64,000 nt of DNA from Candidatus Spongiisociaceae bacterium (GTDB lineage: Bacteria > Actinomycetota > Acidimicrobiia > Spongiisociales > Spongiisociaceae): contig OZ253564.1 of assembly GCA_965262915.1 (NCBI GenBank), positions 2,752,001 through 2,816,000 of the forward strand. The letters run 5' to 3'. Below, one piece after another: positions 51,832 to 58,874 of this stretch. Numbering within the stretch: the first letter of the stretch is position 1; every line of letters starts with the position of its first letter. Both the position numbers and the translations under genes were made by a program. The notes under the pieces are model-generated. The model did not search any database, had not been told where the DNA came from, and was given only the letters and a program-made list of their open reading frames with translations.

Positions 51832-52939
51832 GATTGCTCCGCGAGAGCCGATTCGCCCGGCTAGGTAAGCGCTTCGCTGTGCGTTATGCCCGAGCATTAC
51901 TGACCGTAGTGCCCACAGGCGACGAAGGCCAGTACGCCGACGGACCGGTCACGACGAACAGCATGGGGCTGGCGCGAAATCATCGAAAGCCGAGGTCAGC
52001 GGCTCGGACCATGAGGGGCTCAGAACGGATCTCACGCGATCCTGGAACGTCTTCTTGGCTGAGGAGCGCAAAAGCACAGGTCAGGGGCATGAACAGCACA
52101 TAGGCTCAGCCGTGCGCATACACGTCGAGCGTCTCTGGATCGCCGTCATGAATGGCTCGTTCCAAGCAGTGGTGCACCTCTGTCGTCGACGTGGGAGGCC
52201 GCCAGTTGATCGACAAAGTGGCGGGTAGAACGGCAGAGAGCGCCGTGTCGTGGTTCCTCGCACAGCCAGCCGATTGGCTCGAGGGGATCCGCTGAGCGGT
52301 GCCGGGTCATGTCCGGTCCGTATCGGAAGGCGTATGACAGGGTGCTACCGGACCCCCTCCAGGTAGGGGATCCGTTCCACGTCATACGCCTCGCCAACCA
52401 GCGTCTCGACGGAGTACGACGCCGGGTCCACAACGAAACCCTCGGCCATAGAGGACGCAAAGGTGACGCGCTCTACGGCATACGCCGCCTCCTCACCGCC
52501 GCTCATGAGAAGATCAGCGACCGCGGTCAAACCCGCTTGCGCGGTTTCCTCGATGCTGGTGACCCCCACGGGGAGGTACGCACGGCCTGGCATGCGAAGG
52601 AAACCGTCCGAGGTATCTACAACATTGAGAGTCCGGTCCTCGCTCTCCAGTACACCCTCCAGCTCGCAGACGACCTCCAACACGAATCCTGCCCACCCGA
52701 GATCAACAAGTTGGGTCGCACCATCGCCTGTTGGACCCCCAGATCACCAACTGGCACATCTCGAAGGTAACCAATGGACCCACCGAAGCTCTCAACAACC
52801 TGATCAAACGAATCAAACGAGCAGCCTTCGGGTTACCCAACTTCGCGAACTACCGAATCCGGGCCCTCCTATATGCGGGGAAACCCAACTGGGACCACCT
52901 CGCATCGGTCACTCCCTACTGAGATCCACTCATAATTAG

Positions 52940-53150
52940 AAGGTTCCTGGGCTAGGGCGGGTCTGACCCAACTGAAATCTGGCCTTGTGCCTTTTCATCG
53001 ATCTGTCGGCCCGTTCCCGGCCTGGGGCGTGACGCCCGTGACCCGGGGCGGATGTGACCTAATAGGAGCCTTCAACTTCTCCACCGTGAGTGGCCTGTCC
53101 AACCGCACACGGGTCCGGGGATCGGAAATGATTCTATCCCCTAGAGGAGA
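52940..53150 (+). ncRNA. Putative bridge RNA of IS110 A
   Basis: About 230-nt non-coding left end homologous to 54570-54760, with segments matching both the target flanks and the element ends. Boundaries are approximate. Confidence 0.75.
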
Positions 53151-53158
53151 AGAGCATC

Positions 53159-54388
53159 ATGGGAGAAGCAGACCAGATTATCTACGGTGGGGTTGACACC
53201 CATCGGGACGTCCACGTAGCAGCGGTGGTGGATGGCGTCGGGCGGGTACTGGGATCGGAGTCTTTCGCGGTGGAGGAATCCGGTTATCGGCGAATGGTCA
53301 CCTGGTTCGAGTCGCGGGGACAGTTGGTTCGGGTTGGGGTGGAAGGAACGGGTAGTTACGGCGCCGGCCTGGCCCGTTACCTGACCGAGATGAACATCGA
53401 GGTGGTGGAGGTCAACCGCCCCAACCGCCAACTACGCCGCCAGAAGGGCGGCAAGACCGACAGCGTCGACGCCGAGGCGGCAGCTCGGGCAGCTGCCTCG
53501 GGCGAAGCAACCGCGGTTCCCAAGTCCGGTGTGGGCCCGGTCGAGTGCATACGGATGCTGTGGGTGGTGCGCCGCTCCGCGGTCAAGGCCCGCACCCAGG
53601 CCGCTAACCAGATACATGCGCTGGTCGTAACAGCTCCCGAGCCGCTAAAACACCAGCTAAAGGGCATGAATCTCAAAGCACGGGTCAAAACCTGTGCCCG
53701 GTTCCGACCCGGCACAGACCACACCACCACCGCGTATGCGAAGCGTGCCCTACAGCATTTGGCCCGCCGGTATCAGGCTCTCGACGTAGAGATCGCCCAA
53801 CTCGAAGCCGAGATCCGGCGTCTCTGCGCCCAGGCCAACCCGGCCCTGCTGGCCACAGAAGGTGTCGGTCCTGACACAGCCGCCGCGTTGTTGGTCGCCG
53901 CCGGCGACAACCCCAAGCGAATGAAATCGGAACGGTCTTTCGCGGCGCTGTGCGGCGCCAGCCCCGTCCAGGCGTCATCAGGACGAACCCTTCGGCATCG
54001 TCTCAACCGGGGCGGCAACCGCCAAGCCAACAACGCGCTATGGCGGATCGCTACCACCCGGATGCGCACCGACGCCGCCACCAAAGCCTACGTGGCACGA
54101 CGCAAGGCCGAGGGCAAGAAGAAAAAGGAGATCATCCGCTGCCTCAAGCGGCACATCGCCCGAGAAATCTACCGGCTCCTCACCAACCCGCACCCAACCC
54201 CGAACTGCGCCCGCCTACGCACCCGACGCCAACAACGCGGCATCACCCTCACCCAGACCGCCCAAGCCGTCGGAACCCACCCCAATCGCATCTCAGCACT
54301 CGAACACGGCCGAGACCACAACCACCACCTCGCCACCCGATACCAGAACTGGCTGCACACCCACCAAACCGCCCCATCATCGATTTGA
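53159..54388 (+). CDS. IS110 DEDD recombinase with C-terminal XRE-like HTH extension
   Basis: GVDTH, VEGTGSYG, KTDSVDA, GVGP, ASSG, NRGGNRQAN, RCLKR, then LRTRRQQRGITLTQTAQAVGTHPNRISALEHG. Confidence 0.93.
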   Translation: MGEADQIIYGGVDTHRDVHVAAVVDGVGRVLGSESFAVEESGYRRMVTWFESRGQLVRVGVEGTGSYGAGLARYLTEMNIEVVEVNRPNRQLRRQKGGKTDSVDAEAAARAAASGEATAVPKSGVGPVECIRMLWVVRRSAVKARTQAANQIHALVVTAPEPLKHQLKGMNLKARVKTCARFRPGTDHTTTAYAKRALQHLARRYQALDVEIAQLEAEIRRLCAQANPALLATEGVGPDTAAALLVAAGDNPKRMKSERSFAALCGASPVQASSGRTLRHRLNRGGNRQANNALWRIATTRMRTDAATKAYVARRKAEGKKKKEIIRCLKRHIAREIYRLLTNPHPTPNCARLRTRRQQRGITLTQTAQAVGTHPNRISALEHGRDHNHHLATRYQNWLHTHQTAPSSI

Positions 54389-56618: not shown

Positions 56619-57232
56619 TTGCCCTCCGGCGTCGGAGTGATGCACCAGCCGCCGATCTGGGGAGGCTGTGTCGGGTCGCCGGGCCCAGAGTGCTTGCTCC
56701 AAAGCGTCGAGCGCCAGGTCGGTTCGTAGACTGTTCGACACTCGCCAACCGACGACGAACCGGGAATAAGCGTCGATCACCAACGCCACGTAGACGAAGC
56801 CCGACCAGGTCGGAACATAGGTTATGTCGGACAGCCACAGACGGTCCGGGCGGTCCGCCTCGAAGCTGCGGTCGACCAGATCAGCGGGTCGGGCCGCGCT
56901 GTCGTCGGGGATGGTCGTGCGCTTGGTTTCGCCTCTGACCACGCCTTTTAGGTCTTCCAGGCGCATGAGACGCTCCACCGTGCATCGAGCCACCTCTACT
57001 CCTTCACGATGTAACTGACGCCAAACCTTGCGGGCTCCGTACACCCCGAAGTTCGACTCCCACACCCGCCGAATCTGGGGCCTCAGCTCCCCGTCCCGGC
57101 GACACCGGGCCGATCGGCGTTCGGGTTCACGCTCCCGCCGCTTGTGCTCGTAGTAGACAGACGGGGCGATCGGCAACTCAGCACAAATCGGCTCGACCCC
57201 ATAGGTCTCTCGGTGATCATCCACGAAGGTGG

Positions 57233-57556
57233 TCATCTCCGGGGTCGGCGGTCGAGCTCCGCCTGCGCGAAATACGCAGACGCCTTCCTCAAGATCTCAT
57301 TCGCCCGCCGCAGCTCCCGGTTCTCCCGGCGCAACTCCTTCAACTCCGCCAGCTGATCCGAACTCAACCCAGGTCGCAAACCCTGATCCGTCTCAGCCCG
57401 CCGCACCCACTTGCGTAGCGTCTCCGACGAACACCCGAACTTCTCCGCTATCGAACAGATCGCCGCCCACTCAGAACGGTGCTCCCCCCGATGCTCCAAC
57501 ACCATCCGGACAGCACGCTCCCGCACCTCCGGCGAATACATCATCAGTCTTCCCAT
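57233..57556 (-). CDS. IS3 OrfA
   Basis: [13 protein letters not shown]...ETLRKWV...[22 protein letters not shown]. Confidence 0.9.
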
Positions 57557-58874
57557 GACTCCATTATCTCCCAACCAATAGAGTCTCCGGGAAACCCGGG
57601 GCGGTTCAGGATACGCATGTGGGGGCGTTGGTGGATAGCGCTGGTCGGCTGCTGGGTTCGGAGTCGTTCTCCGCGGAGGCATCCGGGTATCGGCGTATGG
57701 TCGCCTGGTTCGGGTCGCAGGGTCGGCTGGTTCGGGTCGGGATGGAAGGGACAGGCAGCTACGGCGCCGGCCTGGCTCGCTATCTGACCGCAGCCGGGAT
57801 CGAGGTGGTGGAGGTGAACCGCCCCAACCGGCAACTACGCCGCCAGAAGGGCGGCAAGTCTGACAGCGTCGACGCCGAGGCACCAGCCCGGGCGGCTGCT
57901 AGCGGGGAGGCGGCGGCGGTTCCCAAATCTGGTGATGGGCCGGTTGAGTGCCCTGCGGATGCTGTTGGTGGCCCGCCGCTGGGCGACCAAGGCCCGCACC
58001 CAGGCGGCTAACCAGATCCATTCTGTGATCGTTGGTGCCCCAGAGCCGGTAAAACACCAGCTCAAGGGCCTCAACCTCAGAGCACGAGTAGCGGTTTGTG
58101 CCCGCTGGCGTCCCGGCCAAGCACAGACCACAGCCGCGTACGCGAAGAAGGCTCTACGCCACCTGGCCCGCCGATACCAAACCCTCAACGCTGAGATCAC
58201 CCAACTCGAGAGAGACATCCGCCGTCTCTGCGCCCGGGCGAACCCGGCGTTGTTGGCCGCCACCGGTGTGGGCCCTGACACAGCCGCCGCTCTGCTGGTC
58301 GCCGCCGGCGACAACCCCGGGCGAATGAAAACAGAAGCGTCCTTCGCGGCGCTGTGCGGCACCAGCCCTGTCCAGGCATCATCAGGACAGACCATACGGC
58401 ATCGTCTCAACCGGGGCGGCAACCGCCAAGCCAACAGCGCTGTGGCCGATGCGCTACCACCCGGATACGTACCGACGCTGCCACCAAAGAATATGTGACC
58501 AGACGCCAGGGAGAAGGCAAGAACCGAAAAGAGATCATCCGCTGCCTCAAACGCCACATCGCCCCACAGATCTACCGACTACTCACCAACCCGCCACCAA
58601 CCCCGAACTGCGCCCGCCTACGCAACCAGCGCCAACAAGACGGCATCACCATCACCCAAGCCGCCCAAGCCCTCCGAACCCACACCGCCCGCATCTCAGA
58701 ACTCGAACACGGCCGAGACCACAACCACCAACTCGCCAGCCAATACCACAACTGGCTCCTAACCCACCAACCCGCCCCGTCACCGACTTGACAACCGTAG
58801 GAGCATCCTTGGAAAGGGGGTGAGGCCCAGCTGGAATCGGCGAATAGCCAAGACGCCGATCCAGGGAGGCCTCA

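What the first reader, a model, noticed from the sequence alone, without database searches (positions are those of the whole stretch)
52918..58817. Two sibling IS110 elements whose bridge-RNA guides covary with their own insertion sites
Seen in sequence: the two non-coding leaders share a scaffold (GGGCGGGTCTGACCC..aaATCTGGC..GCCTTT..GATCTGTCGGC..TGACCT..CACCG) and differ where their targets differ. Left target guide: A has ACTG-aa-ATC (52971) against flank ACTG-ag-ATC (52918); B has GGTG-aa-ATC (54589) against flank GGTG-gc-ATC (54486). Right target guide: A has TCATCGAT (52995), the reverse complement of its right junction ATCGATGA; B has CCTTTCCAAGGAT (54612), the reverse complement of ATCCTTGGAAAGG (58805). 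Donor guides: ATAGGAGC (53062) and GTAGGAGC (54682) track the A/G difference between the two right ends, and TGAGTG (53087, 54708) pairs with the left end CACTCA. Established: IS110 bridge RNAs have target- and donor-binding loops. Inference: this is a naturally reprogrammed pair from an actinobacterial subfamily with a different geometry (4 nt + 2 unmatched + ATC core). The left junction of A has one extra C, so its exact crossover is ambiguous by 1 nt.
Basis: partly seen in the sequence, partly recalled or inferred. Interest (0 to 1): 0.85.

Follow-up and report, generated by a model that had tools for sequence, protein, structure and literature searches.

The report
IS110 elements with canonical bridge RNAs

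Summary
A (52928-54404) is an intact IS110-group element. B (54495-58807) is a decayed relative, split by an IS3 that itself holds an IS30-like element. Both left ends encode an IS621-type bridge RNA with a target loop and a donor loop.

The genome holds 31 such leaders in 8 guide classes. A scaffold-pattern scan of metagenomes returned 80 more loci.
- With the left end placed only by the donor guide, 47 of 52 unique guide/flank pairs match at 7 to 9 of 9 bases, and 0 of 10,000 permutations reach this.
- Right-target and handshake guides covary likewise, and the stems show compensatory changes.
- The recombinase keeps the IS621 catalytic residues.

The "4 + 2 unmatched + ATC" geometry is not supported. 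The left target guide is a contiguous 9-mer that matches the consensus ISL3-end targets 9/9, and the two window flanks are simply diverged copies. A and B are about 80% alike, and their differences are not concentrated in the guides.

This is a new member of a known kind. One oddity remains: in three guide classes of this genome the 9-mer ends one base before the crossover C.

The parts
52309..52927 (+). Degenerate ISL3-family element #1: 3' part of its transposase gene and the inner part of its right inverted repeat. It ends in A's left target ACTGAGATC (52918-52926) plus the crossover C (52927).
   Evidence: Pfam DDE_Tnp_ISL3, E 3.1e-20, for ORF 52309-52767. The flank consensus CACTCCCCACTGAAATC occurs 32 times in the genome, 15 occupied and 17 empty.
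52928..54404 (+). IS110-group element A, 1477 bp. Left end ACTCATAATT, right end CATAGGAGCATC.
   Evidence: Nine near-identical copies (99-100%) in the own genome. The same element sits in the same ISL3 site in another MAG (L031).
52931..52936 (+). -10 box CATAAT. It lies 17 nt from the -35 box only when the right and left ends are joined in a circle.
   Evidence: spacer 14 + 3 = 17. Promoter rebuilding at the circle junction is the published IS621 model. Not tested here.
52948..53020 (+). Target-binding loop of bridge RNA A. It comprises the outer stem, LTG 52971-52979, the inner hairpin TGGC..GCC, RTG TCATC 52995-52999, the core-pairing G at 53000 and the handshake AT at 53001-53002.
   Evidence: stem covariation; LTG; RTG.
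53045..53108 (+). Donor-binding loop of bridge RNA A: LDG ATAGGAGC 53062-53069, RDG TGAGT 53087-53091, core-pairing G at 53092 and handshake GC at 53093-53094.
53159..54388 (+). Recombinase A, 409 aa: DEDD RuvC-like domain, Tnp domain and a C-terminal XRE-type helix-turn-helix (residues 351-386).
   Evidence: Pfam. The alignment to IS621 (8wt6) conserves D13, E62, D101, D104 and S274.
54385..54390 (+). -35 box TTGACA in A's right end.
54405..54412 (+). A's right target GATGAGCC, the tip of the ISL3 right inverted repeat.
   Evidence: Empty sites read ACTGAAATCCGATGAGCC.
54464..54494 (+). Left inverted-repeat region of ISL3 element #2. It holds an unoccupied site of guide class CGCGAAAAC (CGCGGAAAC|GTGGG, 54464-54477, 1 mismatch), then B's left target GGTGGCATC (54486-54494).
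54495..58807 (+). IS110-group element B, 4313 bp with its nested insertions. Guides: LTG 54589-54597; RTG TCCAAG 54616-54621 followed by GAT; LDG 54682-54689; RDG 54708-54713. The recombinase gene is split at 54828/57609 and further frameshifted.
54829..57608 (-). IS3-family element inserted in B's recombinase gene, flanked by the 4-bp repeat GGAT. It carries the ALIL frameshift RNA at 57162-57278.
55214..56611 (+). IS30-like transposase gene of a further element nested inside the IS3. The ends of that element were not mapped.
   Evidence: Pfam HTH_38 plus weak rve. The IS3 OrfB is split around it.
58808..60068 (+). B's right target CTTGGAAAGG, followed by the rest of the left end and the transposase gene (58875-60068) of ISL3 element #2.
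   Evidence: Pfam DDE_Tnp_ISL3, E 2.3e-58. Left-end consensus from 14 copies.

Best explanation
A and B are IS110-group insertion sequences that work as IS621 does (mechanism inferred by homology).

When the element circularises, TTGACA in the right end and CATAAT in the left end come 17 nt apart. That promoter transcribes a bridge RNA of roughly 175 nt from the left end, upstream of the recombinase gene.

The RNA has two internal loops.
- In the target loop, a 9-nt left guide has the sequence of the top strand left of the insertion point, and so pairs with the bottom strand. A 5-6-nt right guide is complementary to the top strand right of the insertion point. It is followed by a G for the crossover C and by AT, which reads the donor's last two bases (the handshake).
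- In the donor loop, [A/G]TAGGAGC reads the right end and TGAGT-G reads the left end. Two further handshake bases read the target bases just before the crossover.

The DEDD/Ser recombinase exchanges strands at a single shared C. There is no duplication.

A is programmed for ACTGAAATCC^GATGA in the right inverted repeat of an ISL3-family element. B is programmed for GGTGAAATC^CTTGGA in the left end of the same ISL3 family. Six further guide classes in the genome hit other repeats, including the ISL3 left repeat and an IS3 terminal repeat.
For: Protein:
- Pfam finds DEDD_Tnp_IS110 and Transposase_20.
- phmmer against IS621 (8wt6) gives E 9.5e-12, with D13, E62, D101, D104 and S274 aligned to IS621 D11, E60, D102, D105 and S241.

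RNA structure, on 61 distinct leaders:
- The three stems pair in 95.5% of cells, against 28-49% when the partner is slid.
- The covariation score is 0.358 against 0.09 or less in the slid controls, and 0 of 500 shuffles reach it.
- The varying pairs lie outside the bases fixed by my search pattern.

Left target guide:
- I examined 111 leaders (80 metagenome loci and 31 in the own genome). The left end could be placed by the RDG complement alone in 74.
- Of 52 unique guide/flank pairs, 24 are 9/9, 11 are 8/9 and 12 are 7/9. The other 5 score 2 to 6 of 9.
- Across 34 guide classes the mean identity is 7.8/9 with the own flank and 3.8/9 with other flanks, and 0 of 10,000 permutations reach this.

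Right target guide:
- Of 36 unique pairs, 6 are 6/6, 16 are 5/6 and 9 are 4/6.
- Across 24 classes the mean is 4.75/6 against 2.06/6, and 0 of 10,000 permutations reach this.

Donor-loop handshake: it pairs with target position -2 in 37 of 41 combinations and with -3 in 32 of 41, and 0 of 10,000 permutations reach this.

Empty sites: unoccupied sites exist for classes A (17), B (6), CGCGAAAAC (6), CCTCGTAAC (2) and CCGGGAAAC.

Independent insertions: the nine near-identical A copies lie in ISL3 copies carrying four different sequence tags, and empty copies with the same tags exist.

Promoter: the circle-junction geometry is TTGACA-17-CATAAT in both A and B.

Reprogramming: close pairs with different guides concentrate their differences in the guide columns.
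- c3/c6: 7 of 15 against 20 of 171, p 0.002.
- c4/c5: p 0.002.
- c1/c3: p 0.001.

Weak hint of transcription: in a sponge metatranscriptome library, one 154-nt contig covers 52967-53110 (both loops) without a difference.
Against: - No experiment here shows the RNA, its ends, its binding to the recombinase or any recombination. The RNA-library contig may come from DNA and cannot show ends or strand.
- Rfam 15 returned no bridge-RNA match for the region at E up to 1.
- The left donor guide matches only 8 nt and stops 3 nt before the crossover, whereas in IS621 all four guides include the core.
- In three guide classes, A among them, the left target guide is displaced by one base from the crossover.
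- One class-A-type copy (genome 3665109) sits in a site that its guides match poorly, 5/9.
- For one search's class means I kept the best-matching flank of each guide class, which favours the result. The 52-pair tally carries no such choice.
- The metagenome loci were found with a pattern that fixes 24 scaffold bases, so the invariance of those columns says nothing.
Confidence: 0.9

Rival explanations
1. The many copies at the same flank arose because ISL3 elements that already carried the IS110 insert transposed as a unit. On this reading the recurring guide/flank match counts as a single event and says little about guidance.
For: A sits 8 bp from the ISL3 tip. The composite keeps both ISL3 tips, so co-mobilisation is conceivable. 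Many class-A copies share the same 30-nt flank.
Against: - The nine 99-100% identical A copies lie in ISL3 copies with four different 12-nt tags, and empty copies exist for every tag.
- Seven other guide classes in the genome, and the distinct classes on unrelated metagenome contigs, each match their own different flank.
- The permutation test used one flank per guide class.
Confidence: 0.05
2. The guide-like segments act as DNA. They would be subterminal copies of the ends and of the target, read by the transposase (perhaps by its helix-turn-helix), with no RNA involved.
For: The recombinase has an extra C-terminal helix-turn-helix domain. No transcript is shown here.
Against: - The stems flanking the guides keep pairing through compensatory changes (143 cells changed on both sides, 0 of 500 shuffles reaching this). 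A protein-read DNA site would not need that.
- The recombinase is homologous to IS621, for which RNA guidance is shown by biochemistry and cryo-EM (passages read).
- Relatives without the helix-turn-helix show the same guide/flank matches.
Confidence: 0.03
3. The matches in A and B are chance resemblances in G+C-rich repeats.
For: For the pair A/B alone, the guide columns are no more different than the rest of the leader (p 0.70). Their two targets also share TGAAATCC.
Against:: 0 of 10,000 permutations for each of the three guide/flank tests; the scaffold pattern is expected 0 times in the window by chance.
Confidence: 0.01

Closest known systems
IS621 and the IS110-group bridge RNA system (Durrant et al. 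2024, PMC11208160; Hiraizumi et al. 2024, PMC11208158; passages read)
   Same: - A DEDD/Ser recombinase with all five catalytic residues.
- The RNA is encoded in the long left end.
- Two internal loops, each with a 9- or 8-nt 5' guide (bottom strand) and a shorter 3' guide (top strand).
- Handshake bases 3' of the right guides.
- No target duplication.
- A sigma-70 promoter rebuilt at the circle junction.
   Different: - The shared core is effectively one base, C (read as a dinucleotide NC whose first base often differs between target and donor), rather than CT.
- The left donor guide stops 3 nt before the crossover.
- Recombinase A is only distantly related to IS621 (E 9.5e-12) and carries a C-terminal helix-turn-helix of about 65 residues that the aligned IS621 chain lacks.
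- In A the stretch between the -10 box and the target loop is too short for a 5' stem-loop.
- In three guide classes the left target guide is displaced by one base.
IS1111-group elements with seekRNA (Siddiquee et al. 2024, PMC11187229; search listing and start of abstract only), such as IS4321/IS5075, which target Tn21 inverted repeats (reference list of PMC11208160)
   Same: RNA-guided DEDD transposases that insert at one position inside the terminal repeats of other transposons.
   Different: In IS1111 elements the RNA lies in the right end, downstream of the gene, and the subterminal inverted repeats are long. Here the RNA lies in the left end.
ISPpu9 / ISPpu10 of Pseudomonas putida (PMC12288879; 10.64898/2026.03.19.712850; search listings only)
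   Same: IS110-family elements that insert into one conserved repeated sequence present in many copies in a genome.
   Different: Those targets are extragenic or intergenic repeats. Here the targets are the ends of ISL3 and IS3 elements, and one genome holds 8 guide classes.

Membership tests
IS110 family, IS110 group (bridge recombinase + bridge RNA) | N-terminal RuvC-like DEDD domain and C-terminal Tnp domain | tested here: met
   PF01548 E 1.2e-23 and PF02371 E 1.7e-19.
IS110 family, IS110 group (bridge recombinase + bridge RNA) | Catalytic D, E, D, D and Ser conserved | tested here: met
   D13, E62, D101, D104 and S274 align with IS621 D11, E60, D102, D105 and S241. I counted these by hand on the alignment, allowing the chain's 2-residue offset.
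IS110 family, IS110 group (bridge recombinase + bridge RNA) | Structured non-coding RNA with two internal loops, encoded in the long left end | tested here: met
   Leader of 231 bp (A). Stems are supported by covariation on 61 leaders. Transcription was not shown.
IS110 family, IS110 group (bridge recombinase + bridge RNA) | Left target guide of 8-9 nt identical to the top strand left of the insertion point | tested here: met
   47 of 52 unique pairs match at 7/9 or better, and 0 of 10,000 permutations reach this. In 3 classes the match sits one base further left.
IS110 family, IS110 group (bridge recombinase + bridge RNA) | Right target guide complementary to the top strand right of the insertion point | tested here: met
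   31 of 36 unique pairs match at 4/6 or better, and 0 of 10,000 permutations reach this.
IS110 family, IS110 group (bridge recombinase + bridge RNA) | Donor guides matching the element's own right and left ends | tested here: met
   The complement of the 6-nt RDG was found upstream of the loop in 74 of 111 leaders, and the 8-nt LDG at the right end in 52. Many of the other loci are truncated contigs. The LDG stops 3 nt before the crossover.
IS110 family, IS110 group (bridge recombinase + bridge RNA) | Handshake guides that pair with the non-cognate DNA | tested here: met
   The donor-loop handshake pairs with target position -2 in 37 of 41 combinations and with -3 in 32 of 41. The target-loop AT matches the donor's ..GCAT-C in the window elements.
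IS110 family, IS110 group (bridge recombinase + bridge RNA) | Core dinucleotide shared by target and donor and included in all four guides | tested here: inconclusive
   Only the C is always shared. The preceding base differs between target and donor in most classes. The LDG does not reach the core, and in 3 classes the LTG does not either.
IS110 family, IS110 group (bridge recombinase + bridge RNA) | Promoter rebuilt at the circle junction | tested here: met
   TTGACA-17-CATAAT in A and in B, from sequence only.
IS110 family, IS110 group (bridge recombinase + bridge RNA) | RNA-dependent recombination | not testable with these tools
   Needs a bench assay.
IS1111 group | Guide RNA in the right end, with long subterminal inverted repeats | tested here: not met
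   The structured leader lies upstream of the gene, and the right end is 16 bp past the stop codon.

The most novel reading that the evidence does not exclude
In this Acidimicrobiia lineage of helix-turn-helix-bearing IS110 recombinases, a left target guide displaced by one base from the crossover may be a working alternative geometry. This would mean either a one-base bulge in the target or a left guide that does not read the core.

Three unrelated guide classes match 9/9 to the nine bases that end one base before the crossover C: ACTGAAATC, ACTGAAATT and CCGGGAAAC. Counting the Cs in empty and occupied sites confirms this for two of them.

The junctions always follow the register of the right target guide. 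That would fit insertion fixed by top-strand exchange alone.
Probability: 0.35. Interest if true: 0.5.

Novelty: new member of a known kind. Interest (0 to 1): 0.35.

Why it matters
The finding adds no new principle. RNA-guided IS110 recombination and guide/target covariation have been in print since 2024. It has three smaller uses.

- One genome offers 8 naturally reprogrammed target loops on related scaffolds, with both occupied and empty sites. That makes a compact natural test set for bridge-RNA design rules, including tolerance of single mismatches (GATGA against GAAGA) and a one-base register shift.
- It shows IS110 elements living on the ends of other insertion sequences (ISL3 and IS3), stacked four deep in this window. 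This helps explain the IS load of the genome.
- It points to a recombinase subclade with an extra helix-turn-helix domain of unknown role.

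Tried and rejected
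- Rfam gave no bridge-RNA hit for 52500-59200 at E up to 1. The only hits were the ALIL pseudoknot of the IS3 and a chance radC match.
- searched 401 genomes of the class with a pattern I had mistyped (8 N where the loop has 6). It found nothing even in the own genome and says nothing about distribution. I did not repeat that search across genomes.
- (protein-based locus search of genome contigs) returned only 2 loci. L032 did not match my scaffold pattern and I did not analyse it further.
- One search used contigs only, so no circle-junction reads, RNA ends or strand can be read. One contig of run X5 joins 52944 to 54403. I could not interpret it, and it is not a precise excision.
- I considered an ATC core with a 3-bp duplication and rejected it. 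16 of 17 empty sites read ATCCGATG, so only one C is shared.
- I considered that A's left end starts one base earlier (CACTCA). Counting Cs rejects this: the occupied junctions hold 3 Cs, the empty site 2 and the donor 1.
- I considered leader swapping between lineages, because A and the 79%-identical A-like group share an 86% identical leader. A tree with short inner branches explains this equally well, so I make no claim.
- Literature searches for 'bridge RNA' + 'target-binding loop' + 'bulge' and for 'IS110' + 'ISL3' + 'inverted repeat' + 'bridge RNA' returned 0 papers. These are the only searches behind any remark that the offset or the ISL3 targeting is not in print.
- I did not open supplements of any paper. 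Supplementary Data of PMC11208160 (guide/target tables) may already hold relatives of these elements.

Full report
WHAT IS THERE

The interval holds two IS110-group elements in the same orientation, each sitting in an end of a separate ISL3-family element.

Element A (52928-54404, 1477 bp) is intact. It has a 231-bp non-coding left end, a 409-aa recombinase gene (53159-54388) and a right end of 16 bp after the stop codon. Pfam finds DEDD_Tnp_IS110, Transposase_20 and a C-terminal HTH_31/HTH_3 domain.

Element B (54495-58807) is a decayed relative. Its recombinase gene is cut at 54828/57609 by an IS3-family element (54829-57608, 4-bp repeat GGAT, ALIL frameshift RNA at 57162-57278). That IS3 is itself split by an IS30-like element whose transposase gene is 55214-56611. 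The rest of B's gene is frameshifted.

Left of A lies the 3' part of a degenerate ISL3 transposase gene. Right of B lie the rest of an ISL3 left end and an ISL3 transposase gene. The nesting is therefore four deep: ISL3 > IS110 > IS3 > IS30.

THE OBSERVATION

A pattern built from that scaffold hits only these two places in the window, against none in 100 shuffles.

MORE COPIES SETTLE THE INTERPRETATION

The genome, one 5.06-Mb contig, holds 31 leaders with this scaffold, in 8 classes of left target guide (LTG).

| LTG class | Leaders | Note |
|---|---|---|
| ACTGAAATC | 17 | includes A |
| CGCGAAAAC | 4 | |
| AAAGAACAC | 3 | |
| GGTGAAATC | 2 | includes B |
| ACTGAAATT | 2 | |
| CCTCGTAAC | 1 | |
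| CCGGGAAAC | 1 | |
| TTGACAAAC | 1 | truncated |

Sixteen of the 17 class-A leaders sit at one position of the ISL3 right inverted repeat.
- In 15 of them the flank reads ACTGAAATC, identical to the guide. The window copy has the variant ACTGAGATC.
- Seventeen unoccupied copies of that repeat exist. Sixteen read ACTGAAATCCGATGAGCC (or GAAGAGCC), and one has a single C.

For class B, the second copy and six empty sites read GGTGAAATC|CTTGG, again 9/9.

COVARIATION BEYOND THIS GENOME

For all 111 leaders I placed the left end using only the complement of the right donor guide, which was possible in 74. I then compared the 9-nt guide with the flank.
- Of 52 unique pairs, 24 are 9/9, 11 are 8/9, 12 are 7/9 and 5 are lower.
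- Across 34 guide classes the own flank matches 7.8/9 and other flanks 3.8/9. I kept the best flank per class, which favours the result.
- 0 of 10,000 permutations reach the observed sum.

With the right end placed by the left donor guide, the right target guide matches the next six bases at 4.75/6 against 2.06/6 (24 classes, 0 of 10,000 permutations).

The two bases after the right donor guide pair with the two target bases before the crossover in 37 and 32 of 41 combinations (0 of 10,000 permutations). This is the handshake pairing described by Hiraizumi et al.. The conserved GAT after the right target guide reads the crossover C and the donor's last AT in the same way.

THE RNA

On 61 distinct leaders, RNAalifold finds the outer stem of the target loop, its inner hairpin and the outer stem of the donor loop.
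- 95.5% of cells pair, against 28-49% when partners are slid.
- 143 cells carry changes on both sides.
- The covariation score is 0.358, against 0.09 or less in the slid controls, and 0 of 500 shuffles reach it.
- The varying pairs lie outside the bases my search pattern fixed.

Joining the ends of A or of B brings TTGACA and CATAAT 17 nt apart. This is the circle-junction promoter of the published model.

In one sponge metatranscriptome library, a 154-nt contig covers 52967-53110, which is exactly the two loops, without a difference. This is a weak hint only, since contigs show neither ends nor strand and DNA can be present in the library.

THE ENZYME

phmmer aligns recombinase A with the IS621 transposase of 8wt6 (E 9.5e-12). 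D13, E62, D101, D104 and S274 fall on the IS621 catalytic residues (residue roles).

HOW IT WORKS

This is the IS621 mechanism, inferred by homology. Shown here are the anatomy, the pairing rules and the conserved residues. Not shown are transcription, binding and catalysis.

The crossover is at a single shared C. Empty and occupied sites give LT-C-RT plus LD-C-RD, which become LT-C-RD ... LD-C-RT, with no duplication.

WHAT IS ORDINARY AND WHAT IS NOT

Ordinary: the whole architecture, and the habit of targeting repeats. Here those repeats are three sites in the ends of one ISL3 family and the terminal repeat of an IS3.

A and B are not close. Their coding parts are 81% identical and their leaders 63%, and their differences are not concentrated in the guides (5 of 15 against 62 of 169, p 0.70). 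Closer pairs do show that concentration: c3/c6, c4/c5 and c1/c3, p 0.001-0.002.

Three things are less ordinary.
1. In classes ACTGAAATC, ACTGAAATT and CCGGGAAAC the 9-mer matches the nine bases that end one base before the crossover C.
   - The identities are 9/9 at offset 1, against 3, 3 and 6 of 9 in register.
   - Counting Cs in empty and occupied sites confirms this for A and for CCGGGAAAC.
   - No metagenome locus shows a good match (7/9 or better) at this offset.
   - The junctions follow the right-guide register.
   - I can offer only an inference: a one-base bulge, or fixation of the top-strand exchange product.
2. The left donor guide pairs with 8 nt and stops 3 nt before the crossover.
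3. All recombinases of this genome's classes, and those of 4 metagenome loci (L053, L083, L099, L104), carry a C-terminal helix-turn-helix. Most other relatives end at about 360 aa.

VERDICT

The bridge-RNA reading is supported. The special geometry is refuted. This is a new member of a known kind, with one small unexplained register shift.

Noticed in passing
G000 genome coordinates 3663632-3665109 (locus L010): One element with class-A guides (ACTGAAATC / TTCATC) does not sit in the ISL3 end. Its site, CCCCAAAGAACCCC|...|ACCGCCGTC, resembles the target of class AAAGAACAC (AAAGAACAC|AACGC). It may be an off-target insertion, or a target loop replaced after insertion.
   Followed up: partly
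G000 genome coordinate 306094 (- strand): This is the only ISL3 right end that reads ACTGAAATCGATGAGCC, with one C. It would fit A's two target guides in register, and it is unoccupied.
   Followed up: no
window 53159-54388, residues 346-409; also L016, L026, L029, L083, L099, L104: A C-terminal XRE-type helix-turn-helix on the IS110 recombinase. It lies past the end (residue 345) of the alignment to the IS621 chain, which itself ends a few residues later, and it is absent from most metagenome relatives with the same RNA scaffold. Its role is unknown.
   Followed up: partly
window 54464-54477: An unoccupied target of another guide class (CGCGGAAAC|GTGGG, 8/9 to LTG CGCGAAAAC) lies 17 bp upstream of B's insertion point, in the same ISL3 left repeat.
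   Followed up: yes
window 57585-57608 and G000 962732 (locus L029): The IS3 that split B carries in its terminal repeat the target CCGGGAAAC-C-CGGGG of yet another IS110 guide class of this genome. IS110 elements and the IS3 thus insert into each other.
   Followed up: partly
L042, L046, L063; L038, L051, L055, L062; L050: Metagenome relatives with the same scaffold are programmed for other conserved sequences. By my reading of the flanks these are the 3' end of a tRNA gene (GTCTCCCGC), a ..CGCTACGAC motif inside what looks like a transposase gene, and ..TGGTTCAAC, which looks like the C-terminal coding end of an IS3-type transposase gene.
   Followed up: no
window 52928-52947 versus 54495-54577: A has only about 32 nt between its left tip and the target-loop scaffold motif GTCTGAC, too short for a 5' stem-loop after the -10 box. 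B-like classes have 72-83 nt there.
   Followed up: no
run X5, joint 52944 to 54403: One DNA contig joins a point 17 bp inside A's left end to a point 2 bp before its right end, skipping 1458 bp. This may be a deleted remnant in a related strain.
   Followed up: no
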